Part shown: positions 44,798-63,913 of the stretch, piece by piece
Position numbering within the stretch: the first letter of the stretch is position 1
Layout of the letters: every line of letters begins with the position of its first letter
Source of the DNA: a virus
Reading direction: 5' to 3' (one strand)
Virus record (IMG/VR): IMGVR_UViG_3300005529_000001
Span: 272,882 to 336,881 of that record
DNA length: 64,000 nt
The notes under the pieces: model-generated
Told to the model about the DNA's origin: nothing
The model's input: the letters and a program-made list of their open reading frames with translations, nothing else
Databases searched by the model: none
Made by a program: the position numbers and the translations under genes

Positions 44798-44835
44798 TGA
44801 ACCCATCCACTTTAGAGTGGTATGGTAAGGGAAAC

Positions 44836-49637: not shown

Positions 49638-50449
49638 GCGTAGCTTTTTTGCTTGTCACCTGCTGTCTTGAGCAGTCTCGTGCCGATCTCCTCGACAGGG
49701 TGGTCGAGAACCTGTGCGAACAAGCGCCTGAACTGCGAGAGACGATGCTTGTTTTTGACAACGCATCGACTGTCCCTGGCGTCAGGACCTTGCTGACATC
49801 AAACTTCCGTCATGTCCGTCAAGCTGACAGGAACGTCGGCTACTGGTCTGCGGTCGACTGGTGGCTCACGGTGCTCGATTCGGCACCCAAGAAGCCCGAC
49901 TTCACGTACATCATTGAGAGCGACATGATCCACTACAACTTCAATAAGCTGTGGGAATGTGCCGTCTACCTCGAACGAAACCCAGATGTGGGTTCGTGCC
50001 GGCTGCACCAGTACTCAGTCGTAGACAGGCACCTCTACAACAAAGACAGACCCCTGCCTGACAGCAAGCGCAATCTGTGGCAATCGCATCAAAACAAAGT
50101 GACGGGCGAGCAAGTCATCTTTTCACAATCAGAGGGTGACATCTGGACATCAACGTTCTTGACACAGCTCCCGGCACTGAACCGTTTTGAGACGATGAAA
50201 GAAGTCTTCCAAACGCTCCGAAGCTCTCCGATGTTTTCTGAGCTCGATTTCCAGATGAATTACTGGAAACGTTACCATCGAACAGCTATCCTCGACGGCG
50301 GGATCTTTCACTGTGATCTGAACCCACATGATGCTGGGACGCTAACTGGTTCGTGGTCATCGCCTGAACAACTAAAGCAGATCGGGTACAAGACCACGAG
50401 GATCGCAACAATCACTCCGCAAGACCAGTACACCGTTTGCTCGCTGTGA
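49634..50449 (+). CDS. putative GT-A (GT2-like) glycosyltransferase
   Basis: MLVFDNAST and ESDM acidic motif. Confidence 0.4.
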   Translation: MSVAFLLVTCCLEQSRADLLDRVVENLCEQAPELRETMLVFDNASTVPGVRTLLTSNFRHVRQADRNVGYWSAVDWWLTVLDSAPKKPDFTYIIESDMIHYNFNKLWECAVYLERNPDVGSCRLHQYSVVDRHLYNKDRPLPDSKRNLWQSHQNKVTGEQVIFSQSEGDIWTSTFLTQLPALNRFETMKEVFQTLRSSPMFSELDFQMNYWKRYHRTAILDGGIFHCDLNPHDAGTLTGSWSSPEQLKQIGYKTTRIATITPQDQYTVCSL

Positions 50450-50462
50450 TACAGTTCACAGG

Positions 50463-51503
50463 ATGTCTGGGACCCTTATCTTTGGCGGCACTGGTTCGCT
50501 CGGTCGCAAGCTGATTGAACGTCTCCTTCCCAAGGGAGACGTTGCTGTCTACTCACGTGATGAAGCGAAACACTGGACTATTCGAAATGAACTTTCGGGG
50601 TTCATTGAGAAAAGCTTGCCCTGGAAGCTTCAGTTCTTTGTGGGTGACGTCAGGGACAAAACTCGAGTCGAAGACGTCATTCGTCAGTACAACCCTGATA
50701 CGATCATCATTGCTGCGGCGCTGAAACAAGTAGACACTTGTGAGCTCAGCCCCAACGAAAGCGTGTTGACAAACCTGATTGGGACTCAGAACGTCATCGA
50801 CGCAGTCAACAAGTCACGGTTCTCCCCTGGTGTCTCAGTCATGTTCGTCAGCACCGACAAAGCTTGCGCACCTGTCAACGTCTATGGAATGTGCAAAGCA
50901 ATCTCAGAACGCGTCGTGACAAGCCAGGCTCGTACGGGGCTATCAAACGTCAGGTACCTAGCGGTCCGTTATGGCAACGTTCTCGAGTCTAGAGGTAGCA
51001 TCATACCGTTGTTCAAACACCAGTGTGAGAAAGGCGAGTTCTTGACGGTCACCGATCCCGAGATGACGCGGTACGTGATGACGCTAGATGACAGCGTGGA
51101 TCTTATCCAAAAAGCAATAGAGTTTGGAATCTCAGGTGAGACGTGGATCCCGTGTCTTCCAGCAATGAAGATCGGTGACCTTGCTGACATTTTTTCTCAA
51201 CGATATAACAAACCCGTCAAGGTCATTGGTTTACGGCCGGGAGAGAAGAAACACGAAGACCTGGTCAACGAGTCGGAGTCAGTTAGGACGCGTAAAATCA
51301 ATCCACCCGTGGGATTTAACTACGTCATCGACCCCGCGTTTCGTTCCGGCAATGGTCAACGGTTCACTTACTCTAGCTCGGACCTGGTCATGAATCGTGA
51401 AGATCTAGAGGTGTACCTCAACAAGCTTGGCATCTTTGACAAGCCGTTAGACCAGTTCAAGGGCCTTGCCATCGAAGAGATCGTCACCAACCGAAAGGAA
51501 TGA
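50463..51503 (+). CDS. UDP-GlcNAc 4,6-dehydratase-like protein (PseB/FlaA1/PglF/CapD family)
   Basis: GGTGSLGRKL Rossmann motif, YSRDEAK, YxxxK region. Confidence 0.7.
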   Translation: MSGTLIFGGTGSLGRKLIERLLPKGDVAVYSRDEAKHWTIRNELSGFIEKSLPWKLQFFVGDVRDKTRVEDVIRQYNPDTIIIAAALKQVDTCELSPNESVLTNLIGTQNVIDAVNKSRFSPGVSVMFVSTDKACAPVNVYGMCKAISERVVTSQARTGLSNVRYLAVRYGNVLESRGSIIPLFKHQCEKGEFLTVTDPEMTRYVMTLDDSVDLIQKAIEFGISGETWIPCLPAMKIGDLADIFSQRYNKPVKVIGLRPGEKKHEDLVNESESVRTRKINPPVGFNYVIDPAFRSGNGQRFTYSSSDLVMNREDLEVYLNKLGIFDKPLDQFKGLAIEEIVTNRKE

Positions 51504-52650
51504 CATGAAGACGTACCCGCTGTTCAAAGTCCACGTTCCCAAAGAGGAAGCTTTGGCCCAGTTGGGTCAGGTCTTCGACTCGGGTTTCATCAACGAAGGT
51601 ACGCAGGTCACCGCCCTGACCAGCCAGCTGTCTGAGTACCTAGAAAGCAATCACCTCATCCTGGTGAACAGCTGCACTAGCGCCTTGTTCATGGCGCTAA
51701 AACTCGCTGGGGTCGGTCCTGGAGACGAGGTCATCAGCACGGCGATGACGTGTGTGGCAACCAACGCTGCCATCGCAATGACAGGCGCTAAGATTGTCTG
51801 GGCTGACGTAGATCCTGAGAGCGGGATGCTTGATCCTTACAGCATCATGGAGAAGATCACTCCTCACACCAAAGCAGTCATGGCGGTGGCTTGGGCGGGA
51901 ACCCCACCTCACATGTTCATGTTGAAAAACACGTGCAAGGCATTTCATGTCAAGCTGATCTTGGATGCTGCACACGCGTTCGGCGCCTATTACAAAAATG
52001 CTCCCGTTCACGAGTGGGCTGACTACACTTGTTACTCATTCCAGGCTATCAAACACTTCACTACGGGGGACGGCGGCGCTCTTATCTGTACCGACAAGGC
52101 TGATTACCAGCGATCTAAGTCGATGAAATGGTTCGGGCTTGACCGTGACAAAACCAAGGATGCTGCGGGCAACTGGAAAGGCCAGCAGTGGGACACCGAC
52201 ATCGAGGAGATCGGCTACAAGTTTAACATGAACAACGTTTGTGCAGCCATCGGTCTGTCGCAGATGAAGCACGTTGACATGATCGTGGACGGCCACGTCA
52301 GGAACGGGGGCCGATATGACATGCTGTTCCTCGACTACGAGCCCGTTAGGCCAATCACGCGGCCAGACGGTAGCATCTCGGCACACTGGGTCTACACCAT
52401 GAAGGTGAACCCCGACAAGTGCAAGCTGTCACGTGACGATCTGTTGAAAGCTCTCAACGCTGAGAAGATCATGGCGGGAGTGGTACACGTTCCGAACGAC
52501 GATTACACCTGCTTTCAGGACATCAAAGACCATAACCTGAAGGGTCTCAAGCAGTTTGCACCCCACCAGTTCTCATTACCGTGTGGGTGGTGGCTTGAAG
52601 AGGAAGACATCCGTCACATCGCCAAGCGTGTCAAGGAACTCACACAATGA
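51504..52650 (+). CDS. DegT/DnrJ/EryC1-family PLP-dependent sugar aminotransferase (PseC/PglE-like)
   Basis: SFQAIKHFTTGDGGALI with conserved Lys; start re-set to ATG 51504. Confidence 0.7.
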
Positions 52651-53171
52651 GAGTTGATGTCCCGGACCAATATTACTTGCGTCCCGTTGAAAACGATGAT
52701 CACCCATTTCTTGTTGACTTGCACAATGATGAGCTGGTCCTCAGGAACTTGACACATCCAGAAGCCATCACTATGGAACAACACATGAAGTGGTGGGAGA
52801 AAACCAAAGCCGATCGGAAACAGCTTAGGTTGATCTTTGTGACAGACGGTCACCGGACGGGTGTTGCCAAGTTCTATGATTATGATGCCATCAACCGGAC
52901 GATTGTCCTGGGAGGCGACATCCACAAAGCACACAGGGGTCATGGGCTCGCTAAGTACATGTGGACGTTGATGCTTGAACGTTGTTTCGAGAGCTTCCAC
53001 GTTCACCGCGTTGGCCTGACGACCGCCGAATACAACGTGATCGGTCAAAGCGTCTACAAAAACTTGGGCTTCATGGAAGAGGGCCGGATCAAAGAATCGT
53101 TGTACCGTGATGGAAAGTTCTATGATCAGATCTGCATGTACCTAACAGAACACGATTGGGCGCTTCAGTGA
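52647..53171 (+). CDS. GNAT-family N-acetyltransferase (PseH-like candidate)
   Basis: GNAT motif A RGHGLAKYMW; follows dehydratase + aminotransferase. Confidence 0.6.
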   Translation: MRVDVPDQYYLRPVENDDHPFLVDLHNDELVLRNLTHPEAITMEQHMKWWEKTKADRKQLRLIFVTDGHRTGVAKFYDYDAINRTIVLGGDIHKAHRGHGLAKYMWTLMLERCFESFHVHRVGLTTAEYNVIGQSVYKNLGFMEEGRIKESLYRDGKFYDQICMYLTEHDWALQ

Positions 53172-53902
53172 ACGAACTGCCTCGTATCTTTGTGGGTACC
53201 ATGTACACCCAAGAGGGTGAGTTTGAGGGCTGTCTCAAACAGATCCGTGCGCAACAGGACGTCGTTGTTGCGCATGTCATCATTGCTAACATGCGTGAGA
53301 AAGAGGCACACAACGCTCTGTGGCACGCCTGGCGTCACCAGGGCTCAAGCCACGATCTCTTTGTTAAGGTCGATGCTGACACCATCCTAGCTTCACCACA
53401 CACGCTAAGGCTGATCTGGGAACAGTTCAATAACAACCCACGAGTCACGGGTCTCCAGGCACCGTTACATGATTACATGACTGATGGCCTGATCAACGGG
53501 CTCAATGCATTCTCAACCAAGGTCGTCTTCAATGATACCCAAGACGAACTGTACTGCGACAGGCAAGTGGACACGAACCATGATGTCGTCCTACGAGAGA
53601 AAGACCTACCATCAACGTTGATCCCGGCAGGTTTTCACTGTTGGAACTCGACTGACTCACAAGCTTTTCATTATGGCCTCCATCGGATGTTGAAGGGGCA
53701 ACGAACAACCATCGACAAAGTCAGAATGGCTTGGAACCGTGACCATGACAGACCAAGAGCTTGGGCTCTGATCGGCGCAAAGATGGCGGACCAGTTTACC
53801 ATCAATCGTCAGTTCAACTACAACGATCCGACGTTCAAAACAGCATTCGCTGAGGCAAATACACGTTATGATGAGCTCACCCAGAATCTTGCAGTTGGTT
53901 GA
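53156..53902 (+). CDS. hypothetical protein, possible GT-A-like glycosyltransferase
   Basis: VKVDADT acidic motif. Confidence 0.3.
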   Translation: MGASVNELPRIFVGTMYTQEGEFEGCLKQIRAQQDVVVAHVIIANMREKEAHNALWHAWRHQGSSHDLFVKVDADTILASPHTLRLIWEQFNNNPRVTGLQAPLHDYMTDGLINGLNAFSTKVVFNDTQDELYCDRQVDTNHDVVLREKDLPSTLIPAGFHCWNSTDSQAFHYGLHRMLKGQRTTIDKVRMAWNRDHDRPRAWALIGAKMADQFTINRQFNYNDPTFKTAFAEANTRYDELTQNLAVG

Positions 53903-54809
53903 CACCCTCGAGTACGCCAAGACCAACTGCTTCCAACACCAGTTGCTAAAGAGCCTACGAGGCATTGCACAAACAGAAACGTGTGCCTTGCCAGCGCTGG
54001 AACGTGCCCTGGACATGGATGACCGTCCTGTCATCGTTTGCCTGAAACAACGAACCCTGGCACAAAATCTGGACGTGCTCAAAGATCATTTAGGAGACAC
54101 GCCCATTGTCATATACGATCAGGACCCGTGGCAAGCCTACATGGATGATCCTGGTTATGTTGGCAAGGGAGTCTATGAACGCGCTGTCGAGCAACTAAAT
54201 GTCAAAGCGATCTGCGTTACCACCCAATGGTGGGCTGATTTCTTAGCGCACCGCGGTTTACCTGGCATTTTCGTCAACATGTGGATGTTACCCGAGTATT
54301 GCACCGAAACGCCAACATACGAAGACAGATCAATATCTGTAGGTTTCGTCGGCAGCCTGCATCCGCACCGTCAAAAGCTGTTTGACCAGCTCGAAGACAT
54401 GGGCATCATCGTCAACGTCCAAGGGGGAGGTCTGTCTTACCAGAGCTATTTGAACGAGCTATCAAAGATCCGTGTCTTCATCCATAGCGAAGATTGCCCA
54501 ATCATGTGTGAAAAGCAAGAACTCAACCTGAAAGACGCCCTGTGGATCAAAGACATTGAAGCCGCGGCTCGGGGTTGTTTCACCATTCGTAATGCGGGCG
54601 CGGGTTTCTTATCGTATTATGATGGGTGTTTGACGTCGTTTCTCTACGAAAACGTCGAAGACATCCCAAACATCCTGAGTGACATCCAGAAAATGGATCC
54701 CACGTCAAGGCAGTTGCTAATCAACAGCGCCGTCAGGTACATCCGTGAGTCAAACAAGTGGGAAGAAACGGCACGCACGTTGGTTACTTTGGCAACAGAG
54801 GGAACATGA
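53868..54809 (+). CDS. hypothetical GT-B-fold-like protein
   Basis: 313 aa; size/position compatible with PseG-type UDP-sugar hydrolase. Confidence 0.3.
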   Translation: MMSSPRILQLVDTLEYAKTNCFQHQLLKSLRGIAQTETCALPALERALDMDDRPVIVCLKQRTLAQNLDVLKDHLGDTPIVIYDQDPWQAYMDDPGYVGKGVYERAVEQLNVKAICVTTQWWADFLAHRGLPGIFVNMWMLPEYCTETPTYEDRSISVGFVGSLHPHRQKLFDQLEDMGIIVNVQGGGLSYQSYLNELSKIRVFIHSEDCPIMCEKQELNLKDALWIKDIEAAARGCFTIRNAGAGFLSYYDGCLTSFLYENVEDIPNILSDIQKMDPTSRQLLINSAVRYIRESNKWEETARTLVTLATEGT

Positions 54810-56083
54810 AAATAGGGTTCATGGGTCTGGGCAAGCTCGGGTTACCCGTTGCCCTGGCGGTGGAAGCCGCGGGCCACGAGGTGATGGGTTATGATCCTGG
54901 CGCTCAAGTTGTTGACATCATATCGACAAAGAAGCTACCGTATGTCGAAGAGAACGCCCAACCGTTGCTCGACAACACCAAGCTCCGGCTAGTAGGTCCC
55001 GGTGACCTGGTCGAACAGTGCGACTTGATCTTCGTAGCTGTCCAGACGCCCCACCACCCACGTTATGAGGGAGTCAGTCGCCTTCCGACCAAGCGAGTCG
55101 ATTTTGATTACACCTGGCTAAAGCAGTCGATCACCCAGCTCGCTGATGCTGCGGCCCAGAAAGCGAAGACGACCCGTGTTGTTGTCATCTCAACGGTGCT
55201 TCCCGGGACGATCGAACGTGAGATCTTCCCAATCATGCATGCGTACGGAAACTTCATCAAGCTGTGTTACAACCCGTTTTTCATCGCGATGGGAACCACG
55301 ATCCGTGACTTCACCAACCCAGAATTTGTTCTCTTTGGGGTAGACGATCACGAAACAGCAACCCTTGCTGAAACGTTTTACAAGACCATCCACGCTCGTC
55401 CCTTCTACAAGACGGGAATCAAGGAAGCTGAGCTGATCAAGGTTGCTTACAACACATTCATCAGCACAAAGATCGGGTTTGTCAACACGTTGATGGAGAT
55501 CTGTCACAAGACGGGTGTCAATGTCGATGCGGTCACAGACGGCTTGAAGCTAGCTAACGAACGTCTGATCAGCACCCGCTACATGACGGCTGGCATGGGC
55601 GATGGTGGCGGGTGTCACCCTCGCGATAACATCGCGTTGTCTTGGCTCGCTCGTAAGCTTGAATTGGGCTTTGATTTCTTTGAAGCGATCATGCTTTCCA
55701 GAGAACGACAGACGGATTGGTTTGCTGATGTGCTTGAAGAGCAGATCGAACAATGCCGGAAGATGGGCTGGAACCCGCCCGTTGTCATCCTCGGTCTATC
55801 TTTCAAACCGGAGACAAACCTGGTCACGGGCAGCCCGGCAATCTTGCTTGCAAACGTCATAGCGGAGCGTGGCATCACTCCCATGTTCTATGATCCCATT
55901 GTCAACCCCAATGACCGGACCCGGACGCTTCCCCCACCACCTGCTCTGTTTTTTGTGGGTACCAAGCACGCTGAGTTTGCAAACATAAAGTTTAGCGTAG
56001 GATCGATCGTTATCGACCCACACCGGTACATCCCCGATCAGCAAGGCGTCACTGTCATCAGGTTGGGTGATGGGACCAAGTGA
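54806..56083 (+). CDS. UDP-sugar 6-dehydrogenase family protein
   Basis: KIGFMGLGKLGLPVA NAD-binding motif; catalytic Cys GGGCHPRDN. Confidence 0.7.
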   Translation: MKIGFMGLGKLGLPVALAVEAAGHEVMGYDPGAQVVDIISTKKLPYVEENAQPLLDNTKLRLVGPGDLVEQCDLIFVAVQTPHHPRYEGVSRLPTKRVDFDYTWLKQSITQLADAAAQKAKTTRVVVISTVLPGTIEREIFPIMHAYGNFIKLCYNPFFIAMGTTIRDFTNPEFVLFGVDDHETATLAETFYKTIHARPFYKTGIKEAELIKVAYNTFISTKIGFVNTLMEICHKTGVNVDAVTDGLKLANERLISTRYMTAGMGDGGGCHPRDNIALSWLARKLELGFDFFEAIMLSRERQTDWFADVLEEQIEQCRKMGWNPPVVILGLSFKPETNLVTGSPAILLANVIAERGITPMFYDPIVNPNDRTRTLPPPPALFFVGTKHAEFANIKFSVGSIVIDPHRYIPDQQGVTVIRLGDGTK

Positions 56084-56774
56084 GTTTTTGGTCTCAGTCC
56101 TTGTCCCAACTCGAAACAGGGTCAAGTTGTTAGAGAAATCGTTGCGTTCGTTAAAAGACAACGCTCGGCTTGATTTCAAGCAGAAAATTGAGATCATCAT
56201 AAAGCTCGATGAAGATGATGTAGCGACCCAAAACTGGGTGATACAAAACAACGCCGAGCTGTGGACAACGCTGTTACCTGGGCCGCGCGGGCGCGGTTAC
56301 GCTGACCTCCACGTCTACTACAATGACATGTGTCGTTTGGCTCGGGGCGAGTTCTTGTTCCTCTGGAACGATGATGCTGAGATGTTGACGCCGGGCTGGG
56401 ACCTGGAGATCAACCGACAACTTGATGGCAAGCCGTGTTACTTGCAATCTGAAGTCAGCGACATTCGTGGACGTGACGCTTTCTTGTTTCCTATCGTTCA
56501 CAGGTCATGGTACGACAGCTGCGGTCACTTCTCGATGTCACCGCACAATGACACGTACGTGTTTAACGCATTCATCAAGTACCCGCAGCTGTTCCGTAAA
56601 ACGGCGATCGTGGTGCGACACGCCGCGTTACAAAATTTGCATGACATCACCAGCTTAGAAGCACGAGGGTGGTGGCCGACAACCAAGAGAGGTTGGGGCA
56701 GCCCGGAAGTCCAGGACTCGCTAGCGTCTGACATCAAACGCTTGGGAGAGCTGGTGAAACAGTATAAGCTGTAA
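56067..56774 (+). CDS. GT2-family glycosyltransferase
   Basis: VLVPTRNR and NDDAEM (DxD). Confidence 0.6.
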   Translation: MMGPSEFLVSVLVPTRNRVKLLEKSLRSLKDNARLDFKQKIEIIIKLDEDDVATQNWVIQNNAELWTTLLPGPRGRGYADLHVYYNDMCRLARGEFLFLWNDDAEMLTPGWDLEINRQLDGKPCYLQSEVSDIRGRDAFLFPIVHRSWYDSCGHFSMSPHNDTYVFNAFIKYPQLFRKTAIVVRHAALQNLHDITSLEARGWWPTTKRGWGSPEVQDSLASDIKRLGELVKQYKL

Positions 56775-56790
56775 AGATTACATTCTACGC

Positions 56791-57771
56791 ATGAAGAGCA
56801 TCGCCGTCGTGGGCCAGGGTTTCGTTGGTGGATCGCTAACGACAGTTTTTGCAGAGCGTGGCTTTGACGTGTATGCTTATGACAAAGCGGGCAAGATCGC
56901 TACGGGTGCTAAGGTTCCTCGCTTCCATGGCCACGGAACTGGGCCTGATGGAATCGAAGCTACATCTGTCAAGGGCTTGGTCTTTGCGATGGATGAATTG
57001 GGTAAGGCTTTCAGCAACGTCTACTTCGTGTGCTTGCCGACCCCCATGTTCGAGGACGGCGAGGCTGACCTGTCGATCGTTGAGGGCGTCCTCGCTGAGC
57101 TCGCCGAAGCGCACAAGGTCCTGGAGCGTTGGGGGATCGCGGTCGTCAAATCGACGGTCCCGCCGGGCTCAGTCGAGCGATGGAACAAGGCTTTCAACTC
57201 ACAGGGTCTCTACATCGTCTTCAATCCAGAATTCCTGACAGAGGCCAACGCCCTGGACGACATGCGCAACCAGGATCGGATCATCCTGGGCGGGCCCCGC
57301 CCCTACATCAACATTGTCAAGCTGCTGTTTCAGACGGCGTTCAAGGGCGTCCCCGTCATCAAGACCTCATCGACGACGGCGGAGATGGTGAAGTACACCA
57401 TCAACTGCTTCCTGGCGACCAAGGTCGCCTTCGCCAACGAGATCGCGCAGATCACTGAAGCGCTGGACGCTGACGGTCTTAACGTCGACTATGACAAAGT
57501 GGTTGAGTACGCCAAGCTCGACAAGAGGTTGGGCAACAGCCATTGGGCAGTACCAGGGCCCGTGCCCACGCACGATGGGCGATACGTGCGCGGTTTCGGA
57601 GGGCACTGTTTCCCCAAAGACTTGAATGCGCTTGTTTTCGTTGCGAAACAACTCGGGGTTGACCCGAAAGTCCTCACCAGTGTCTGGGCCAAGAACCTTG
57701 AGGTCCGCGGGCCCGAAGACCGCGACTGGGAACACATGCAAGGCCGAGCTGTCAGCAAGAAAAAGAAGTGA
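56791..57771 (+). CDS. UDP-glucose/GDP-mannose dehydrogenase family protein (second copy, shorter)
   Basis: VVGQGFVGG and catalytic Cys GGHCFPKD. Confidence 0.65.
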   Translation: MKSIAVVGQGFVGGSLTTVFAERGFDVYAYDKAGKIATGAKVPRFHGHGTGPDGIEATSVKGLVFAMDELGKAFSNVYFVCLPTPMFEDGEADLSIVEGVLAELAEAHKVLERWGIAVVKSTVPPGSVERWNKAFNSQGLYIVFNPEFLTEANALDDMRNQDRIILGGPRPYINIVKLLFQTAFKGVPVIKTSSTTAEMVKYTINCFLATKVAFANEIAQITEALDADGLNVDYDKVVEYAKLDKRLGNSHWAVPGPVPTHDGRYVRGFGGHCFPKDLNALVFVAKQLGVDPKVLTSVWAKNLEVRGPEDRDWEHMQGRAVSKKKK

Positions 57772-57877
57772 AACATTCAGTTTGGGCTGAATAGGGTATG
57801 CTCAAGACGGGAATCCCACCGTCGCCTTGACGTTGAAGCCAGTGAGGCTGAGTCAGGGACTCAACACGGAGAGTGTC

Positions 57878-58885
57878 ATGAGCGAGTTTGGAATTGTCAT
57901 CATGCGGGCACAGCCCTTTCACAATGCGCACCTGGAATTGGTGCGTTTTGCGCTTAAGGAAGCGCAAAAAGTAGTCATCATCCTGGGAAGTGCCAACGCG
58001 CCCCGGGACACAATGAACCCCTTCACCGCCGACCAACGGCGTGACATGGTCAGGAGTTGCCTGACTGCCGACGAGCTCTCTCGTGTCGAGATCATCTCCG
58101 CGAAAGACTACCTCTCAAACAACATGTGGATCGCAGCGGTCCAAAACTCGGTCGATGCTGTCACGGGCGGGTCCAGTGATATCAAGCTGATCGGTCACAA
58201 GAAAGACGCCTCAAGCTTCTACTTGAAGCTGTTTCCACAGTGGAGCTTCCATGAGACGGGAGCTTTCTCTGAGCTCAATGCGACGAGCGTCAGGGAGAAC
58301 CTGTTCCGACAGGATAAGATCACCATCAAGACGCAGGTGCCGAAGCCGGTCTACGACTACCTGTGCTCTTGGATGGAGAGCGCTGAGTACAAGCGCCTCC
58401 ATGGTGAGTACAAGAACGTACAAGAAGAACATGCCGCTTGGGAGGAGAGCCCTTACGTCCCCACCTTCGTGACGACAGACGCCATCGTCATCTGCAGCGG
58501 TCACATCCTCATCGGCCGCCGGGGTGGAGCTTACGGCAAGGACCTGCTGGCTTGGCCAGGTGGGTACCTAGAGCAAGACAAGTCAATCCTGGACTCTTGC
58601 ATCCGTGAGCTCCGGGAGGAGACGAAGCTCAAGGTCTCGACCGAAGACCTGAAGAAGGCGGTCATCGATAAGGACGTTTTCGATGACCCCCGGCGCGACC
58701 AACGCGGGCGTGTCATCACCCATGCCTTCTGTTTCAAGCTGCCCGATGGGCGGCTACCTGAGGTCCAGGGTGCGGACGACATGGCCAAGGCATGGTGGAT
58801 GACCATCAACGAGTTCTACACCCGAGAGCTCGAGTTCTTCGCAGACCATTTCAAGATGGGCTGCCGTTTCATCAATCGATTTTAA
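57878..58885 (+). CDS. nadM: bifunctional NMN adenylyltransferase / Nudix hydrolase (NadM-Nudix)
   Basis: H-x-G-H type PFHNAHL; Nudix box PGGYLEQDKSILDSCIRELREETKL. Confidence 0.85.
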   Translation: MSEFGIVIMRAQPFHNAHLELVRFALKEAQKVVIILGSANAPRDTMNPFTADQRRDMVRSCLTADELSRVEIISAKDYLSNNMWIAAVQNSVDAVTGGSSDIKLIGHKKDASSFYLKLFPQWSFHETGAFSELNATSVRENLFRQDKITIKTQVPKPVYDYLCSWMESAEYKRLHGEYKNVQEEHAAWEESPYVPTFVTTDAIVICSGHILIGRRGGAYGKDLLAWPGGYLEQDKSILDSCIRELREETKLKVSTEDLKKAVIDKDVFDDPRRDQRGRVITHAFCFKLPDGRLPEVQGADDMAKAWWMTINEFYTRELEFFADHFKMGCRFINRF

Positions 58886-58941
58886 AAAGTTCCGCCCGAT
58901 CGAGCCAGAGAGGCCCGCGAGGCGCATCACGGAGAGTGAAT

Positions 58942-60393
58942 ATGAGAACCACATACATCAGGACGTACCTTAGAAAACCCGACCTCGAGCTCAGCGCGAT
59001 CGAGGACACTGACTCGTATAAATTCAGCCACTTCCCCATGTACCCGGGCATGTCGTACATGGAGAGTTATCTCGAGGCTCGGGGCGGCGAGTTCGACACC
59101 TGTACCCTGTTTGGGTTGCAGTACGTCATCCACAAGTACATCGCCAAGCGTGTGACAGCAGCTGATGTCGAACGTGCTGAAGCCTTCGCCCTGGCACACG
59201 GTGAGCCGTTCAACCGCAAAGGTTGGATGCACATCGTCACGAAGTACCACGGTTACCTTCCCATCACCATCCGCGCCATCCCAGAGGGCATGGTGGTGCC
59301 CGTCAAGAACGCCGTGATGATTGTCAGGAGCCCGGTCGATCCCGAGTGTGCCTGGATCACTAACTGGTTGGAGACGTTGCTGTCCAGGGTCTGGTACCCG
59401 TCGACGGTCGCCATCGCGAGTCGCGAGATCAAGAAGGTCTGGAAGCATTACCTCGACCTGACCAGCGACACCCCCGAGGAGATCAGCTTTAAACACCATG
59501 ACTTCGGTTCGCGTGGCGTCACCAGCCAGGAGCAGGCGATGCTCGGCGGCGCGGCCCACCTGCTTAACTTCCTCGGTAGCGATACCATCGCGGGCATCCG
59601 CATGGCGAATCACTATTACGACGAAGCCATGGCGGGTTTCAGCATCCCAGCCACCGAGCACTCGACGATCACCATCTTCGGTCGTGACCACGAACGTGAT
59701 GCCCTCAAGCTCTGGATCCAGAAGATGCTGGTCGAGCGTCAGGTCCCCGAAGGGCTGCCCAAGCTCGCTGCTTGCGTTGGCGACTCTTACGACATTTACC
59801 GTTTCACGGAGATGGTTTGCGAACCCGAGATCTACGCCATGATTAAGGGTTCGGGCGGCACCCTGGTCGAGCGCCCCGATTCGGGCGACCCGATCGAGGT
59901 GCTTCTCAGGATCCTCGGCATCATGGAGGATCGCCTCCCAAAGGGTGAGATCACTGTCAACTCTAAGGGTTTCAAGGTGTTGCCTGCGTGCCTCCGTCTC
60001 ATCTGGGGCGATGGCATCAACCGTCGCAGCATGAAGACGATCCTGAAGGCAATCACAGACGCAGGATGGAGCGCCTCAAACCTGGCTTTCGGTTCGGGCG
60101 GTGGCCTGCTGATGGATTTCAACCGCGACACCCAGAAATGGGCGTTCAAGCTGTGCTACGCCATCGTGGACGGCACACCGCGCAAGGTGTCGAAGGACCC
60201 GATCACCGACCCGGGCAAGCGCTCGAAAGAGGGTCACCTCGATTTGATCGTCACCCCAAATGGCGTCGAAACGGTCACTATTCCAGACAATGTTGCAGCT
60301 CATCACAACAGCGTCATGGTGACCTACTACGATGGTGGTGACATCACATTCCACACCGACATGACCGCCTGCCGGACAAGGATGGCGATCTGA
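58942..60393 (+). CDS. nadV: nicotinamide phosphoribosyltransferase (NadV/NAMPT)
   Basis: NAMPT-like regions GSDTIAG, HSTITIFG, GSGGGLLMD; ATG 58942 with GGAGAG RBS. Confidence 0.8.
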   Translation: MRTTYIRTYLRKPDLELSAIEDTDSYKFSHFPMYPGMSYMESYLEARGGEFDTCTLFGLQYVIHKYIAKRVTAADVERAEAFALAHGEPFNRKGWMHIVTKYHGYLPITIRAIPEGMVVPVKNAVMIVRSPVDPECAWITNWLETLLSRVWYPSTVAIASREIKKVWKHYLDLTSDTPEEISFKHHDFGSRGVTSQEQAMLGGAAHLLNFLGSDTIAGIRMANHYYDEAMAGFSIPATEHSTITIFGRDHERDALKLWIQKMLVERQVPEGLPKLAACVGDSYDIYRFTEMVCEPEIYAMIKGSGGTLVERPDSGDPIEVLLRILGIMEDRLPKGEITVNSKGFKVLPACLRLIWGDGINRRSMKTILKAITDAGWSASNLAFGSGGGLLMDFNRDTQKWAFKLCYAIVDGTPRKVSKDPITDPGKRSKEGHLDLIVTPNGVETVTIPDNVAAHHNSVMVTYYDGGDITFHTDMTACRTRMAI

Positions 60394-60412: not shown

Positions 60413-60847
60413 ATGGATTACACCGCAAGCAAGATCGCCGATCACCTGTTCCAAGGCGGACGACCACCCCCGGGTGACGGCCTGAAAAACGCCGGGGTAG
60501 ACGTCCTAGTCCTCTGTGCCAGAGAGTGGCAAGAGAGCGCGCTCTACCCCGGACTCATCGTCATCAAAGCTCCTGGTGATGATGATCGACGTGAACATCG
60601 GTTAATGCAGTCCATCGACAAGTGGAAGCTCGCCGCAGAACTCTCAGCCGAACATGTCATGGCAGGTCGCAACGTCTTGATCACTTGCATGCAGGGACTC
60701 AATCGTTCAGGACTAGTCATGGCTATGACGTTACGGATTCTGACGGGATGGTCGGGAAAGAAGATCGTCGAGCACATCCAGAATCACCGCGAGCATGCCT
60801 TGTTCAACGATACGTTCGTTCGTTACATTGAGACCAACTACCCATGA
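60413..60847 (+). CDS. dual-specificity/tyrosine protein phosphatase
   Basis: CX5R catalytic loop CMQGLNRSG. Confidence 0.7.
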   Translation: MDYTASKIADHLFQGGRPPPGDGLKNAGVDVLVLCAREWQESALYPGLIVIKAPGDDDRREHRLMQSIDKWKLAAELSAEHVMAGRNVLITCMQGLNRSGLVMAMTLRILTGWSGKKIVEHIQNHREHALFNDTFVRYIETNYP

Positions 60848-61350
60848 TCAACTACCTTGTCGGAGACGCAACTGATCCACGGGTTACGGGCAACAAGATC
60901 ATCGCTCATGTCTGCAATGACATTGGTGGCTGGGGCAGAGGGTTCGTCTTGTCGGTGTCCAAGAAGTGGTCCGAGCCCGAAGCGGTTTACCGTCAAGGGA
61001 AAGACCTGACCTTGGGATCTGTCATGTTTGTCCCGGTATCCCACACCGATACAACCATCCAGGAGACGATCTACGTCGCAAACATGATTGGCCAGCGCGG
61101 TGTCATTGCAGCCGAAGACGGCACCCCACCCATCCGTTACGAAGCCATCGAAACGTGCTTGGGACGCGTCAGAGCGTTTGCGTTGCAGCTCGGTGGAGCA
61201 AGCGTCCACATGCCCCGGATCGGTTGCGGCCTGGCAGGAGGTAAATGGAGCAAGATGGAACCCATCATCGAGCGAGCGCTTGATGGCATCGACACATACG
61301 TGTATGATTTTGACACGAAAGACTCCCGGACTGTTTCCTGGAACAAGTGA
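60844..61350 (+). CDS. macro domain protein (ADP-ribose binding / mono-ADP-ribosylhydrolase-like)
   Basis: IIAHVCNDIGGWGRGFV and VHMPRIGCGLAGG. Confidence 0.75.
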   Translation: MINYLVGDATDPRVTGNKIIAHVCNDIGGWGRGFVLSVSKKWSEPEAVYRQGKDLTLGSVMFVPVSHTDTTIQETIYVANMIGQRGVIAAEDGTPPIRYEAIETCLGRVRAFALQLGGASVHMPRIGCGLAGGKWSKMEPIIERALDGIDTYVYDFDTKDSRTVSWNK

Positions 61351-61503: not shown

Positions 61504-61986
61504 ATGTCATATCACATCGGCCTGCGGGTGCTGCGGGCAAAAATCAGGGGCTTTCAGGCCGCTGGTAGCACCATCGCGTCACGCATCTCGAAGTCCGAGA
61601 AGGACCGCAAGAACCGTCTCTGGAACGAGAAGCGGCTCCTCGGCGTTCACTGTCGTGCTCACCTGGTTGCATATGGGCTGCTCCGTGGGGTACCGTATGA
61701 CCAGATCGAGAAATGCGCACCAAACAACAAGCTAAACCCACAGCTCGTCCTCGACATCATGCTGGCTCACAACGGCTGGGACGCAAAACGAGGGTACGTC
61801 AAGTACGACCTAGCGGTGGTCGAAAAGCTGCTGGCTCCTGCTTCAAACGAGACTGGGAGCGTGCAGGAAAGCCCAACGGTTGTTGCTGCCCCAGCTGCCT
61901 CGCCGAACTCGGGCGTAGTCCACGTGGTCAAGAGCTTGCTAGGCTTGTCCGCGAGGTCTCAAACCGCCCCAAGAAGCGCCCAGTGA
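61504..61986 (+). CDS. hypothetical protein
   Basis: 160 aa. Confidence 0.35.
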   Translation: MSYHIGLRVLRAKIRGFQAAGSTIASRISKSEKDRKNRLWNEKRLLGVHCRAHLVAYGLLRGVPYDQIEKCAPNNKLNPQLVLDIMLAHNGWDAKRGYVKYDLAVVEKLLAPASNETGSVQESPTVVAAPAASPNSGVVHVVKSLLGLSARSQTAPRSAQ

Positions 61987-61994
61987 GACAGGCC

Positions 61995-62351
61995 ATGGCC
62001 ACCATCAAAGAGGGTGACAAGCTTTACGTGGTGACCCGGAGAGACATCTCTCCAGGCTATCAGGGCGTCCAATCACAACATGCAGCCATCCAGTTTGCGT
62101 TTGACCATCCCGAACGTGGGACGGAGTGGTTCAAGAACTCGAACTACTTGGCATGGCTGTCGGTCGAGAATGAGGTTGAGCTGATGAAGCTCATCACTGA
62201 TGCTGCGGACGTCGGGCTCAAATGGTCAGCGTTCAGGGAGCCCGACGTGGGTGGCCAGATCACTGCGATCGCGCTCGAGCCCCACCCACGGACTGCCGCG
62301 CTGTGCAAAGCATTGCCGCTTGCGCTTAGAGAACTGGAACAGGTGAAGTGA
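61995..62351 (+). CDS. peptidyl-tRNA hydrolase, PTH2 family
   Basis: KLYVVTRRDISPGYQGVQSQHAAIQFA parallels PTH2 [25 protein letters not shown]. Confidence 0.6.
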   Translation: MATIKEGDKLYVVTRRDISPGYQGVQSQHAAIQFAFDHPERGTEWFKNSNYLAWLSVENEVELMKLITDAADVGLKWSAFREPDVGGQITAIALEPHPRTAALCKALPLALRELEQVK

Positions 62352-62352
62352 C

Positions 62353-62712
62353 ATGGACCAAGCACTTAATACCATCGTCTATGACGATTTCGCCAGAGTT
62401 GACATGCGTGCGGGCCTCATCACAGCCGCAGAGGCTTTGCCAAAGTCAGAGTTGCTGAAGCTCCAGGTTGACTTCGGTGAGCTAGGAACTCGGCAGGTCC
62501 TTGCTCGTCTCGGCAAGAGCTACGAGCCAGCAACTCTTGTCAACCTCACCGCAGCGTTCGTCGTCAACTTGCCCCCACGTACCATGAAGGATCTTGAGAG
62601 TAACGGCATGATCCTTGCGGCAGAAGTCAAGGATTCTGATGTTCCTGCTCCACACCGCGTTGCCGTGGTGTTGCTCCCCGGGACAGTCCGACCAGGAACG
62701 AGGTTGGGATGA
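62353..62712 (+). CDS. tRNA-binding domain protein (Trbp111/CsaA/MetRS C-terminal 'Myf' domain)
   Basis: VDMRAGLITAAE...LKLQVDFGELGTRQVLARLGKSY...NLPPRTMKDLESNGMILAAE. Confidence 0.75.
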   Translation: MDQALNTIVYDDFARVDMRAGLITAAEALPKSELLKLQVDFGELGTRQVLARLGKSYEPATLVNLTAAFVVNLPPRTMKDLESNGMILAAEVKDSDVPAPHRVAVVLLPGTVRPGTRLG

Positions 62713-63335
62713 CAGAGAACCGCGCGACGTTCTTCGCTAGGTTGGAACCTGTGTTGGCTCCGAGCGACCTGCTCGATGTCCAACTCGCTTACACCCTGGC
62801 GAAATTCGGCCATCGGGCTCAGGCTCGCAAGGAGCTGGGGCCTGCAGGCAAAGCAGTGCGTTATTTCGAGCACTGCCGTCGTGTCGCGCTCATCCTCATT
62901 GATGAGGTCAAGATCGTCGAACCTGGGCTTGTCATCACCGCCCTTCTACATGATTGTCCGGAAGACACTAAGGATGTCAATCCCGCCATCATTGAGCACT
63001 GCTTTGGGCACAAGGTCGTCACCAGTGTCAAGGTCCTGAGCAAGACGCCCAAGGAAGGCTACAACGAGCGATTTTGGGCTTGTTCGCTTTGGCAGCCCTA
63101 CATCATCAAGGGATGTGATAGGCTTGACAACCTGAGGTCACTGTACTGCTGCCCGGATGACTTCCGAGCCAAACAGGTGGCTGAGACACGGGAGAAGTAC
63201 TTCCCGCTGTTCGACCGGATGATGCACCTGGTCCCCATCAAACACCGCGAACGAGCGGCATGGCTTCGCGACGCGGTGCGTCGCGAGACCGAACGCCAAG
63301 CAACGTTACTGGAGGCGTCACATGAAGAAGTCTGA
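62709..63335 (+). CDS. HD-domain small alarmone hydrolase (SpoT/Mesh1-like (p)ppGpp hydrolase)
   Basis: HCRRVALIL...LLHDCPEDT and CDRLDNLRS (cf. ADRLHNMRT). Confidence 0.7.
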   Translation: MTENRATFFARLEPVLAPSDLLDVQLAYTLAKFGHRAQARKELGPAGKAVRYFEHCRRVALILIDEVKIVEPGLVITALLHDCPEDTKDVNPAIIEHCFGHKVVTSVKVLSKTPKEGYNERFWACSLWQPYIIKGCDRLDNLRSLYCCPDDFRAKQVAETREKYFPLFDRMMHLVPIKHRERAAWLRDAVRRETERQATLLEASHEEV

Positions 63336-63757: not shown

Positions 63758-63830
63758 GGGTCCGTAGCTCAATGGCAGAGCAGCTCGATTTCAACCGAGT
63801 GTGTTGCGGGTTCAAGTCCCGTCGGGCCCC
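63758..63830 (+). tRNA. tRNA-like gene, 73 nt, 8-nt anticodon loop AUUUCAAC; anticodon ambiguous (UUC/Glu or UCA register)
   Basis: Acceptor GGGUCCG/CGGGCCC, D-arm GCUC-AAUGGCA-GAGC, T-arm GCGGG-UUCAAGU-CCCGU; only good anticodon stem GCUCG/CGAGU forces 8-nt loop. Confidence 0.6.
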
Positions 63831-63836
63831 CAAAAA

Positions 63837-63910
63837 GCTCCCGTAGCTCAGAGGCAGAGCAGCCGGATTTCAACCCGATGCGGTCGTGGGTTCGATCCCC
63901 ACCAGGAGCG
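63837..63910 (+). tRNA. tRNA-like gene, 74 nt, same AUUUCAAC anticodon-loop, weaker stems
   Basis: D-arm GCUC-AGAGGCA-GAGC, T-arm GUGGG-UUCGAUC-CCCAC, acceptor with one C-A mismatch; anticodon stem imperfect. Confidence 0.45.
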
Positions 63911-63913
63911 CAA

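What the first reader, a model, noticed from the sequence alone, without database searches (positions are those of the whole stretch)
57878..60393. Phage-encoded two-step NAD+ salvage/reconstitution (NadV + NadM-Nudix)
Adjacent genes encode NAMPT/NadV and a bifunctional NMNAT-Nudix, which is the complete nicotinamide-to-NAD+ route and can also recycle ADP-ribose. In a virulent-phage context this pair is the signature of a counter-measure to NAD+-depleting immunity (Thoeris, DSR/SIR2, TIR effectors).
Basis: partly seen in the sequence, partly recalled or inferred. Interest (0 to 1): 0.7.

Follow-up and report, generated by a model that had tools for sequence, protein, structure and literature searches.

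The report
Phage NAD+ salvage gene pair (NARP2)
An uncultured giant phage carries two adjacent, intact-looking genes that together rebuild NAD+ from nicotinamide; this is a pathway (NARP2) already shown in other phages to defeat NAD+-depleting bacterial immunity, so the finding is correct but ordinary.

Summary
57878-58885 (+) encodes a bifunctional NadM-type NMN adenylyltransferase / Nudix ADP-ribose pyrophosphatase. It aligns full length to Synechocystis slr0787 (PDB 2qjo, E 2e-95, 42.8% identity). 58942-60393 (+) encodes a NadV/NAMPT nicotinamide phosphoribosyltransferase. It scores 499 bits on NCBIfam PRK09198 against a cutoff of 405, and all NAMPT catalytic residues checked are conserved. 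The contig is a 369.5 kb T4-like jumbo phage from a metagenome.

The pair matches NARP2, defined and tested with Vibrio phage KVP40 genes (Osterman et al. 2024). The same NadM-then-NadV order occurs in 67 of 80 related viral contigs and is already annotated in cultured phages such as RcXuper and LucasX.

Three deviations were found:
- The H-x-G-H motif is H-N-A-H, which is the norm in this clade.
- The G-x-F-x-P signature reads M-R-A-Q-P, a co-varying swap.
- The first Nudix-box glutamate is lysine, while the REUxEE core is intact.

The anti-defence role is inferred by homology and was not shown here.

Verdict: a new member of a known kind, of low interest.

Side observations are a conserved downstream block and two tRNAs with 8-nt anticodon loops. 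The block comprises a Cys-phosphatase, a macrodomain, PTH2-like and tRNA-binding proteins, and an HD_4 hydrolase.

The parts
57865..57875 (+). Shine-Dalgarno-like 11-mer CACGGAGAGTG, 2 nt upstream of the NadM-Nudix start codon
   Evidence: Exact copy of the 11-mer in front of nadV. It occurs only twice in the window, at these two sites.
57878..58885 (+). NadM-Nudix (NatV-like): N-terminal NMN adenylyltransferase (about residues 1-190) fused to a C-terminal Nudix ADP-ribose pyrophosphatase (about residues 195-335)
   Evidence: Pfam PF01467 (E 7.8e-10) and PF00293 (E 1.2e-11). NCBIfam NF003791 E 5e-113, but 377.6 bits is below the 409 cutoff. PHROG 395 E 4e-68. PDB 2qjo E 2e-95 over residues 3-334, 42.8% identity. 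Motifs: H15-N-A-H18, N134-A-T-S-V-R139, Nudix box G229...K235...R243-E-L-R-E-E248, D323-H324-F.
58928..58938 (+). Second copy of CACGGAGAGTG, 3 nt upstream of the nadV start codon
58942..60393 (+). NadV / NAMPT, nicotinamide phosphoribosyltransferase
   Evidence: Pfam NAMPT_N (E 3.9e-22) + NAPRTase (E 6.3e-40). NCBIfam PRK09198 499.4 bits against a cutoff of 405. PHROG 448 E 2e-131. PDB Xanthomonas NAMPT 7yqo E 1.2e-114 and human NAMPT E about 1e-105; all 32 PDB hits are NAMPTs. Residues equivalent to human D16/Y18/F193/R196/D219/H247/R311/D313/D354/GSGGG/R392 are D24, Y26, F188, R191, D214, H240, R311, D313, D357, G384-G388 and R395.
60413..60847 (+). Possibly associated: small dual-specificity-type Cys phosphatase (CX5R = C-M-Q-G-L-N-R-S), starting 20 nt after nadV
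   Evidence: Pfam DSPc E 9e-6, below the gathering score. PHROG 10650 E 3e-10. Only weak PDB hits, E >= 0.017. Follows NadV in 10 related loci. Its membership in the pathway is not shown.
60844..61350 (+). Possibly associated: ALC1-like macrodomain (ADP-ribose-binding/processing), with its start overlapping the phosphatase stop (ATGA)
   Evidence: PDB BT1257 2afc E 6e-46, Streptomyces SCO6735 5e3b E 1e-44, CHD1L macrodomain E 5e-15. Poa1p matches only over 50 N-terminal residues, E 7e-5 to 6e-3. NCBIfam DarG macro E 3e-7. PHROG 335. Present in 16 of 80 related loci. Its membership in the pathway is not shown.

Best explanation
Two co-directional genes, 56 nt apart, of an uncultured jumbo phage encode a complete two-enzyme nicotinamide salvage route. 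NadV (58942-60393) condenses nicotinamide with PRPP to give NMN. The N-terminal NadM domain of the upstream protein (57878-58885) adenylylates NMN with ATP to give NAD+. The C-terminal Nudix domain of that protein hydrolyses ADP-ribose to AMP and ribose-5-phosphate. This removes the other product of NADase effectors and returns a PRPP precursor to the host pool. Expressed during infection, the pair keeps or overfills the NAD+ pool, so that NAD+-depleting defences (TIR/Thoeris, SIR2/DSR, SEFIR, RES) no longer starve the phage. This makes it a NARP2 system. Shown here: family membership, intact catalytic residues, phage context, and conserved pairing and order. Inferred from the families and from the KVP40 experiments: the enzyme activities and the counter-defence role.
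For: NadV: scores above NCBIfam's curated cutoff. All solved relatives are NAMPTs. Every catalytic or substrate residue checked is conserved, including the autophosphorylated His (H240) and the Asp that sets nicotinamide rather than nicotinate specificity (D214). It is 38-46% identical to the homologues of phages that also carry NadM-Nudix. It is only 28-31% identical to those of Staphylococcus, Bacillus, Listeria, Mycobacterium and ICP1 phages, which are the likely Namat/NARP1 clade.

NadM-Nudix: colinear over its full length with the structurally solved bifunctional enzymes of Synechocystis (2qjo) and Francisella (2qjt). H15, H18, R139, R243, E244, E247, E248, D323 and H324 are invariant or nearly so in 56 homologues.

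Phage context: portal, TerL, SbcC-like protein, PhoH, helicase and T4-type prohead protease in the window. The identical protein sits on a 369,506-bp contig.

Linkage: in 67 of 80 IMG/VR loci that encode a NadM-Nudix relative, a NadV gene lies downstream on the same strand within 8 kb. Cultured phages RcXuper and LucasX have the same annotated order. Both genes carry the same 11-nt ribosome-binding region.

No PRPP-synthetase-like Adps gene, the NARP1 partner, was found in the window or in the 8 kb downstream.

Function of the kind: KVP40 Nampt + Nmnat rebuild NAD+ and overcome Thoeris, DSR, SIR2-HerA and aRES (papers read).
Against: No experiment exists for this phage. Identity to KVP40-type proteins is modest: about 41% for NadV with Vibrio phage D479, and 32-33% for NatV with ValKK3 and D479.

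The NadM signature deviates. G-R-F-Q-P-F-H-x-G-H reads M-R-A-Q-P-F-H-N-A-H, and the NCBIfam equivalog score (377.6) is under its cutoff (409). The first Nudix-box Glu is Lys, the only such case among 56 homologues. ADP-ribose hydrolysis could therefore be weakened.

The genes directly follow a large NAD(P)-dependent sugar-nucleotide pathway, and this synteny is conserved in 21 loci. A plain metabolic-supply role fits equally well.

NADase defence systems in the unknown host cannot be examined.
Confidence: 0.78

Rival explanations
1. This is an auxiliary metabolic module rather than a counter-defence. The pair raises NAD+ to feed the phage's own NAD-consuming or NAD-dependent enzymes and its large replication demand, independent of host immunity. 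It is not mutually exclusive with the best explanation.
For: The pair lies immediately downstream of a roughly 18 kb co-directional sugar-nucleotide island. That island holds two UDP-glucose/GDP-mannose dehydrogenase-family proteins, a PseB-like NAD(P)-dependent dehydratase and a DegT aminotransferase. The dehydrogenase-then-NadM order is kept in 21 related loci. NARP2 overproduces NAD+ even without a defence system (paper). NadV/NatV pairs were noted as typical of jumbo phages before any defence link was known (PMC7139368).
Against: Dehydrogenases cycle NAD+/NADH and do not consume the pool. The synteny can be explained by shared descent within one phage lineage. The only experimentally tested phenotype of this gene pair is counter-defence. 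The Nudix ADPR-ase domain and the neighbouring macrodomain point to handling of NAD+ breakdown products.
Confidence: 0.17
2. The adenylyltransferase half is degenerate. The upstream protein acts mainly as a Nudix hydrolase (ADP-ribose, NADH or NAD-cap), NadV only supplies NMN, and the last step is left to host NadD/NadR.
For: Three substitutions sit inside the nucleotidyltransferase signature (G9M, F11A, and G17A relative to the solved enzymes). The score is below the NCBIfam equivalog cutoff.
Against: Both motif histidines and the SxxxxR arginine are invariant. Ala at the HxGH glycine position is the majority state (47 of 54) in a clade under clear purifying selection. G9M and F11A occur together in four relatives, as a small-for-large / large-for-small swap that suggests compensation. 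From my own knowledge, ATP sulfurylases of the same superfamily use H-x-x-H with Ala at this position.
Confidence: 0.04
3. The phosphoribosyltransferase is a Namat-type enzyme, as in NARP1. It would join nicotinamide to ADPR-pyrophosphate rather than to PRPP.
For: Namat and Nampt are homologous and are annotated alike in databases (paper).
Against: No Adps/PRPP-synthetase-like gene is in the window or in the 8 kb downstream. The protein is adjacent to an Nmnat, which is the marker of the Nampt clade in the defining study. It is closer to cellular NAMPTs (E 1e-105 to 1e-114) and to the NadV of NadM-carrying phages (38-46%) than to the homologues of Staphylococcus, Bacillus and Listeria phages (28-31%).
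Confidence: 0.01

Closest known systems
NARP2 of Vibrio phage KVP40 (NadV/Nampt + NatV/Nmnat-Nudix; Lee et al. 2017; Osterman et al. 2024)
   Same: It has the same two protein families and the same domain architecture: NAMPT_N+NAPRTase, and a NadM-type NMNAT fused to Nudix. It is phage-encoded with no Adps partner, and it predicts the same chemistry (Nam + PRPP -> NMN -> NAD+).
   Different: Sequence identity is modest: about 41% for NadV and 32-33% for NatV against KVP40-type Vibrio phages D479 and ValKK3. KVP40 itself could not be compared directly. Here the genes are adjacent with matching ribosome-binding sites. In ValKK3 no NadV lies within 5 kb of NatV, and in D479 the two genes are about 3.8 kb apart. 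The motifs are variants (HNAH, MRAQP, Nudix K235). The host phage is an unrelated uncultured jumbo phage whose TerL is at most 40% identical to any isolate.
Adjacent NadM-Nudix/NadV pairs annotated in cultured phages (Rhodobacter phage RcXuper, Xanthomonas phage LucasX, roseophages DSS3P8/MD18)
   Same: The gene order and strand are the same, and the spacing is similar. These are the best phage matches: 39-43% for NadM and 43-48% for NadV.
   Different: There is no DNA-level similarity. Those phages lack the phosphatase/macrodomain/PTH2/HD_4 block that follows the pair here.
Cellular NadM-Nudix (Synechocystis slr0787, PDB 2qjo; Francisella FTT0672, PDB 2qjt) and NadV/NAMPT (Xanthomonas 7yqo; human NAMPT)
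   Same: It is colinear over the full length and its catalytic residues are conserved. It is 42.8% identical to slr0787.
   Different: The cellular enzymes carry the canonical G-R-F-Q-P-F-H-x-G-H motif and a Glu at the Gx5E position. They act in housekeeping salvage, not during viral infection.
NARP1 / NARP1-AP (Adps + Namat, with or without the Adpp macrodomain phosphatase)
   Same: The goal of rebuilding NAD+ is the same. Namat is a homologue of NadV. A macrodomain gene sits next to the pathway genes, as in NARP1-AP.
   Different: There is no Adps. The substrate is expected to be PRPP, not ADPR-PP. The macrodomain here is of the ALC1/BT1257/SCO6735 type and matches Poa1p only weakly over 50 residues.

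Membership tests
NARP2 (phage NAD+ reconstitution pathway 2) | Nampt-clade nicotinamide phosphoribosyltransferase | tested here: met
   It scores above the curated cutoff and its catalytic residues are intact. It groups by identity with the NadV of Nmnat-carrying phages.
NARP2 (phage NAD+ reconstitution pathway 2) | Nmnat encoded by the same phage | tested here: met
   The NadM-Nudix gene ends 56 nt upstream of nadV on the same strand.
NARP2 (phage NAD+ reconstitution pathway 2) | Located on a phage genome | tested here: met
   Portal, TerL and prohead protease are present. The contig is 369.5 kb and its relatives are in IMG/VR.
NARP2 (phage NAD+ reconstitution pathway 2) | No Adps (NARP1) partner in the same phage | tested here: inconclusive
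   None was found among all ORFs >= 120 aa of the 64 kb window or in the 8 kb downstream. About 297 kb of the contig could not be read.
NARP2 (phage NAD+ reconstitution pathway 2) | Rebuilds NAD+ in infected cells and overcomes NAD+-depleting defence | not testable with these tools
   This needs co-expression and infection assays with NAD+ measurement.
NadV / NAMPT (type II PRTase, PF18127 + PF04095) | Autophosphorylated His, nicotinamide-specifying Asp, ring-stacking Tyr/Phe, and PRPP-binding Arg/Asp/Gly-rich loop | tested here: met
   H240, D214, Y26/F188, R191, R311, D313, D357, G384-G388 and R395 align to human H247, D219, Y18/F193, R196, R311, D313, D354, GSGGG and R392. The human numbering comes from my own knowledge of the NAMPT literature.
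NadM-Nudix bifunctional NMNAT/ADPR pyrophosphatase | Two-domain architecture colinear with the solved enzymes | tested here: met
   Residues 3-334 align to 8-340 of 2qjo, E 2e-95.
NadM-Nudix bifunctional NMNAT/ADPR pyrophosphatase | Nucleotidyltransferase signature GxFxPxHxGH: the two histidines | tested here: met
   H15 and H18 are present in all 54 homologues that have residues at these columns.
NadM-Nudix bifunctional NMNAT/ADPR pyrophosphatase | Nucleotidyltransferase signature GxFxPxHxGH: the glycines and Phe | tested here: not met
   The sequence is M9-R-A11-Q-P-F-H-N-A17-H. A17 is the clade norm (47 of 54). M9/A11 are shared with three relatives.
NadM-Nudix bifunctional NMNAT/ADPR pyrophosphatase | Second ATP-binding motif (S/N)xTxxR | tested here: met
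   N134-A-T-S-V-R139 is present. R139 is invariant and A135 is nearly so. Francisella has the same N-A-T.
NadM-Nudix bifunctional NMNAT/ADPR pyrophosphatase | Nudix box Gx5Ex7REUxEExGU | tested here: inconclusive
   G229 and R243-E-L-R-E247-E248 are present. The Gx5E glutamate is K235, unique among 56 homologues at a position that varies (E43/Q5/L5/K1/F1/D1). The final G is K250; it is R in the active Synechocystis enzyme.
NadM-Nudix bifunctional NMNAT/ADPR pyrophosphatase | NCBIfam equivalog score above the curated cutoff | tested here: not met
   The best model, NF003791, gives 377.6 bits against a cutoff of 409. This reflects divergence and not a different family.
Adpp (NARP1-AP ADPR-1''-phosphate phosphatase, Poa1p-like macrodomain), considered for 60844-61350 | Closest characterised homologue is Poa1p, and the gene sits inside a NARP operon | tested here: not met
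   The closest solved relatives are ALC1-like macrodomains (BT1257 E 6e-46, SCO6735 E 1e-44). Poa1p matches only residues 2-50, with E 7e-5 to 6e-3. The gene does lie two genes after nadV.

The most novel reading that the evidence does not exclude
The NARP2 pair may be the head of a larger conserved module: NadM-Nudix, NadV, a Cys phosphatase and an ALC1-type macrodomain. This would be a NARP2 counterpart of NARP1-AP. The macrodomain and phosphatase would convert non-canonical NAD+ breakdown or signalling products into plain ADP-ribose; candidates are ADPR-1''-phosphate from RES NADases, other phosphorylated or esterified ADPR species, and ADP-ribosylated targets. The Nudix domain would then split ADP-ribose into AMP + ribose-5-P for PRPP resynthesis. 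More broadly, 57.9-63.9 kb could be an anti-defence island that also targets tRNA-directed immunity, through PTH2-like, tRNA-binding and SpoT-type HD_4 hydrolase genes and unusual tRNAs.
Probability: 0.15. Interest if true: 0.55.

Novelty: new member of a known kind. Interest (0 to 1): 0.2.

Why it matters
This adds a divergent, uncultured jumbo-phage lineage to the known hosts of NARP2. About 20 related viral contigs share the arrangement. It shows that the NadM-type adenylyltransferase tolerates H-x-A-H and M-R-A-Q-P variants of its signature, which matters for profile-based annotation because the NCBIfam equivalog misses it. It does not change the current understanding of phage counter-defence. 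Any added value would come from the neighbouring phosphatase/macrodomain genes and the odd tRNAs, which remain untested leads.

Tried and rejected
(1) A DNA-level search of 57878-60393 against 50,697 phage records found no match, so the phage has no close sequenced isolate.

(2) I tried to compare directly with the experimentally tested KVP40 genes. Three stretches of NC_005083 (28-46 kb and 150-245 kb) were fetched and do not contain nadV or natV. I stopped there and used the Schizotequatrovirus ValKK3 and Vibrio phage D479 as proxies.

(3) Promoter and terminator consensus scans around the pair gave nothing that delimits an operon. The whole 39.3-63.8 kb stretch is co-directional.

(4) I considered whether the macrodomain is the Adpp phosphatase of NARP1-AP. 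I rejected membership because its close relatives are ALC1-like macrodomains and Poa1p matches only weakly. It is also widespread in phages without NARP2: 813 records, including Streptomyces phages where it sits next to Sir2/ART genes.

(5) I considered whether the phosphatase and macrodomain are obligate partners of NARP2. Within the related lineage they come and go independently: the phosphatase is in 10 loci, the macrodomain in 16, and NadV is missing from some loci that keep the macrodomain. Outside the lineage only 1 of about 60 loci has a macrodomain nearby. Cultured NARP2 phages lack both.

(6) I looked for other NAD-related genes (PRPP synthetase/Adps, SIR2, ART, PnuC, NadR) in the remaining 39 larger ORFs and found none.

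(7) The long antisense and overlapping ORFs in 57.7-60.4 kb have no family support. I treat them as by-products of the high G+C content.

(8) No structure prediction was run. Full-length alignments to solved structures already fix the folds.
Full report
**Observation**

The ATG at 57878 opens a 335-codon frame closed by TAA at 58885. The ATG at 58942 opens a 483-codon frame closed by TGA at 60393.

The mechanical ORF list extends both frames upstream, to TTG 57827 and ATG 58792.
- Homologues of the first protein begin at the same position (MxEFGV...).
- Alignments of the second protein to solved structures begin at residues 15-21.
- Each ATG is preceded 2-3 nt upstream by the same exact 11-mer, CACGGAGAGTG. 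It contains a GGAG Shine-Dalgarno core and occurs only at these two places in the window.

**The phosphoribosyltransferase (58942-60393)**

- Pfam finds NAMPT_N (E 3.9e-22) followed by NAPRTase (E 6.3e-40).
- NCBIfam PRK09198 scores 499.4 bits against a curated cutoff of 405.
- PHROG 448, 'nicotinamide phosphoribosyl transferase', gives E 1.9e-131.
- All 32 solved relatives are nicotinamide phosphoribosyltransferases. The best are Xanthomonas NAMPT 7yqo (E 1.2e-114) and human NAMPT (E about 1e-105); no PncB-type enzyme appears.

In the residue-by-residue alignment with human NAMPT (positions located), the functional residues are all conserved; the human numbering is from my own knowledge of the NAMPT literature.

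| Role | Residue here | Human NAMPT |
|---|---|---|
| Ring-stacking / active site | D24, Y26 | D16, Y18 |
| Ring-stacking / active site | F188, R191 | F193, R196 |
| Nicotinamide-specifying Asp | D214 | D219 |
| Autophosphorylated His | H240 | H247 |
| PRPP binding | R311, D313 | R311, D313 |
| PRPP binding | D357 | D354 |
| Gly-rich loop | G-S-G-G-G 384-388 | GSGGG |
| PRPP binding | R395 | R392 |

**The adenylyltransferase-Nudix fusion (57878-58885)**

- Pfam finds CTP_transf_like at residues 12-71 and NUDIX at residues 202-322, both above gathering scores.
- Seven NCBIfam 'bifunctional NMN adenylyltransferase/Nudix hydrolase' models match end to end. The best gives E 5.3e-113, but its 377.6 bits is below the cutoff of 409.
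- The protein aligns over residues 3-334 with Synechocystis slr0787 (PDB 2qjo, E 2e-95, 42.8% identity). It also aligns with the Francisella enzyme (2qjt, E 1.3e-53).

On proper alignment the motifs are present but not canonical.

- *HxGH motif.* The solved enzymes read G-R-F-Q-P-F-H-x-G-H; this protein reads M-R-A-Q-P-F-H-N-A-H. In an alignment of 56 homologues the two histidines are present wherever there is sequence (54 of 54). Ala at the 'G' position is the majority state (47 of 54), so H-x-A-H is the norm of this clade and not a lesion.
- *G9M and F11A.* These two changes occur together in this protein and three relatives, as M/L-R-A. A small-to-large change next to a large-to-small change looks like a compensated swap; this is inference.
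- *Second ATP motif.* It is N134-A-T-S-V-R139, with R139 invariant.
- *Nudix box.* It reads G229-x5-K235-x7-R243-E-L-R-E247-E248-T-K-L. The metal-binding R-E-U-x-E-E core is invariant. The first Glu is Lys, which is unique here, but the position is variable in the family (E43, Q5, L5, K1, F1, D1).
- *Family-specific motif.* The C-terminal F-F-x-D-H motif is invariant.

That is not met.

**Phage context**

The window encodes the following:
- a portal (PHROG 213, E 4e-71)
- a large terminase (PHROG 2, E 5.5e-51)
- an SbcC-like nuclease subunit
- PhoH
- a helicase
- a T4-type prohead protease, ClpP and peptide deformylase

A protein identical to the NadM-Nudix protein is recorded on a single metagenomic contig of 369,506 bp (ENA ERZ27279688, k141_1055159). 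No phage record resembles the region at the DNA level. The terminase is at most about 40% identical to any isolate. This is therefore an uncultured jumbo phage with T4-like morphogenesis genes. Its host and lifestyle are unknown.

**Distribution and gene order**

By tblastn, 474 phage records carry a NadM-Nudix relative and about 2,000 carry a NadV/Namat relative. The best identities are 39-43% and 43-48% respectively.

NadV identities fall into two groups:
- 38-46% to phages that also carry NadM-Nudix: RB43-like, Vibrio, Xanthomonas, Stenotrophomonas and roseophages.
- 28-31% to Staphylococcus, Bacillus, Listeria, Mycobacterium and ICP1 phages. These probably represent the NARP1 Namat clade.

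In 80 IMG/VR loci retrieved with the NadM-Nudix alignment, 67 have a NadV gene downstream on the same strand within 8 kb. The cultured phages RcXuper and LucasX have the same adjacent order, already annotated as such.

**Mechanism**

From established knowledge of the two families, the chemistry is:
- NadV: nicotinamide + PRPP -> NMN + PPi
- NadM domain: NMN + ATP -> NAD+ + PPi
- Nudix domain: ADP-ribose -> AMP + ribose-5-P

Osterman et al. named this phage-borne combination NARP2. With the KVP40 genes they showed that it raises NAD+ and overcomes type I Thoeris and other NAD+-depleting systems. They also found that 94% of phages with a KVP40-type Nampt also encode Nmnat, and that about 1% of phages carry it (bioRxiv 10.1101/2024.02.11.579819). 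It also overcomes the RES-type NADase system aRES, which defeats NARP1 (10.64898/2026.01.28.702374). The pathway is summarised again in PMC13464706.

What is shown here is family membership, intact catalytic residues, phage location and conserved pairing. The enzymatic activities and the counter-defence role are inferred.

'Recycling' of ADP-ribose would yield only ribose-5-P. Conversion back to PRPP needs a PRPP synthetase, and none is encoded in the window.

**Rival explanations**

- *Metabolic supply (confidence 0.17, not exclusive with the best explanation).* The pair directly follows a long co-directional sugar-nucleotide island. That island holds glycosyltransferases, a PseB-like dehydratase, a DegT aminotransferase, an acetyltransferase and two UDP-glucose/GDP-mannose dehydrogenase-family proteins. 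The dehydrogenase-NadM order is kept in 21 related loci. However, dehydrogenases do not consume the NAD pool, and the synteny may be simple descent.
- *Degenerate adenylyltransferase (0.04).* This is unlikely given the conservation pattern described above.
- *Namat-type enzyme using ADPR-PP (0.01).* This is unlikely because there is no Adps, an Nmnat is adjacent, and the protein is closer to bona fide NAMPTs.

**Neighbourhood**

Directly downstream, on the same strand, lie these genes:

| Coordinates | Gene | Evidence |
|---|---|---|
| 60413-60847 | Small dual-specificity-type Cys phosphatase, CX5R intact | |
| 60844-61350 | ALC1-like macrodomain; start overlaps the preceding stop; BT1257 E 6e-46, SCO6735 E 1e-44 | |
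| 61504-61986 | Unknown ORF | |
| 61995-62351 | PTH2-like hydrolase | |
| 62353-62712 | tRNA-binding-domain protein | |
| 62709-63335 | SpoT-type HD_4 hydrolase | |

Parts of this block recur in 10-19 related loci. The members come and go independently, and the block is essentially confined to one phage lineage.

A Poa1p-like macrodomain phosphatase (Adpp) extends NARP1 in some phages. The macrodomain here is of a different subfamily, matching Poa1p only over 50 residues. It is also common in phages without NARP2. An extended NARP2 module or an anti-defence island is therefore a lead, not a finding; I put it at about 0.15.

**Side observation: tRNAs**

Two tandem tRNA genes lie at 63758-63831 and 63837-63911 (Rfam tRNA, 52.2 and 46.9 bits). 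Both have the anticodon loop A-U-U-U-C-A-A-C. In the first, a perfect 5-bp stem forms only if the loop has 8 nucleotides.

Syntenic tRNAs in 17 related loci carry 8-nt loops of the form N-N-U-U-C-A-A-N. In three loci they carry CUA anticodons instead. Across 24 sequences the 8-nt register is supported by covariation: 77.8% of cells are paired with 19 double changes, against 53% and 6 for the 7-nt register.

UCA and CUA both read stop codons. Yet TGA ends 46 of 59 genes in the window, and the structural genes are intact in the standard code. I found no description of such phage tRNAs in two literature searches. This remains unexplained and lies outside the finding.

**Verdict**

The system is a divergent new member of an already described and experimentally tested kind (NARP2). 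The same gene order is already annotated in cultured phages. Interest is low (0.2).

Noticed in passing
window 63758-63831 and 63837-63911 (+); also L003, L006, L010, L013-L016, L018, L020, L035 (coordinates): Two tandem tRNA genes have an 8-nt anticodon loop, AUUUCAAC, which ARAGORN calls a 4-base anticodon UUCA. Syntenic tRNAs in related phages have loops NNU-UCA-AN, or CUA (amber-type) anticodons in L004, L008 and L017. Covariation supports the 8-nt register: 77.8% paired against 53% for the 7-nt register. TGA is nevertheless the main stop codon here. Their function is unknown; they could be suppressors, frameshifters, nuclease-resistant tRNAs or decoys.
   Followed up: partly
window 60413-60847 and 60844-61350 (+): A small Cys phosphatase (CX5R intact, DSPc-like) and an ALC1/BT1257/SCO6735-type macrodomain directly follow nadV. 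The two have overlapping stop and start codons. They are conserved in 10 and 16 related loci, but vary independently and are absent from cultured NARP2 phages. They may process ADP-ribose derivatives or reverse ADP-ribosylation.
   Followed up: partly
window 61995-62351, 62353-62712, 62709-63335 (+): A PTH2-like peptidyl-tRNA hydrolase, a tRNA-binding-domain protein and a RelA/SpoT-type HD_4 hydrolase lie in a row, just upstream of the odd tRNAs. The row is conserved in 10-19 related loci. This suggests a tRNA-directed function, for example countering toxins that modify or cleave tRNA. That reading is inference only.
   Followed up: no
window 39287-57771 (+): This is a large co-directional sugar-nucleotide/glycan island. 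It holds GT2 and GT4 glycosyltransferases, a PseB-like dehydratase (Polysacc_synt_2), a DegT aminotransferase, a GNAT acetyltransferase and two UDP-glucose/GDP-mannose dehydrogenase-family proteins. More GT4 genes lie beyond the window end (L001 17195-19671). It may glycosylate the virion or modify DNA.
   Followed up: no
window 57865-57875 and 58928-58938 (+): The identical 11-mer CACGGAGAGTG sits 2-3 nt upstream of both start codons and occurs nowhere else in the window. This suggests matched translation initiation of the two enzymes.
   Followed up: yes
window 57902-57931 (codons 9-18 of NadM-Nudix): The signature G-R-F-Q-P-F-H-x-G-H reads M-R-A-Q-P-F-H-N-A-H. G9M and F11A co-occur in four related proteins, which looks like a volume-compensating swap. 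H-x-A-H is the majority form in this clade. As a result the NCBIfam equivalog models score below their cutoff.
   Followed up: partly
whole window (59 gene calls): Stop-codon usage is strongly skewed: TGA 46, TAG 7, TAA 6. G+C content is highest (0.55-0.58) across 56-64 kb, against about 0.47-0.53 elsewhere in the window.
   Followed up: partly
window 399-893 (-) and other ORFs scanned: The phage encodes a peptide deformylase (399-893). Among the ORFs scanned together, not mapped individually, are a ClpP-type protease, TnsA-like endonuclease N-terminal domains (2 ORFs), a GIY-YIG/NUMOD3 homing-endonuclease-like protein and methyltransferases.
   Followed up: no
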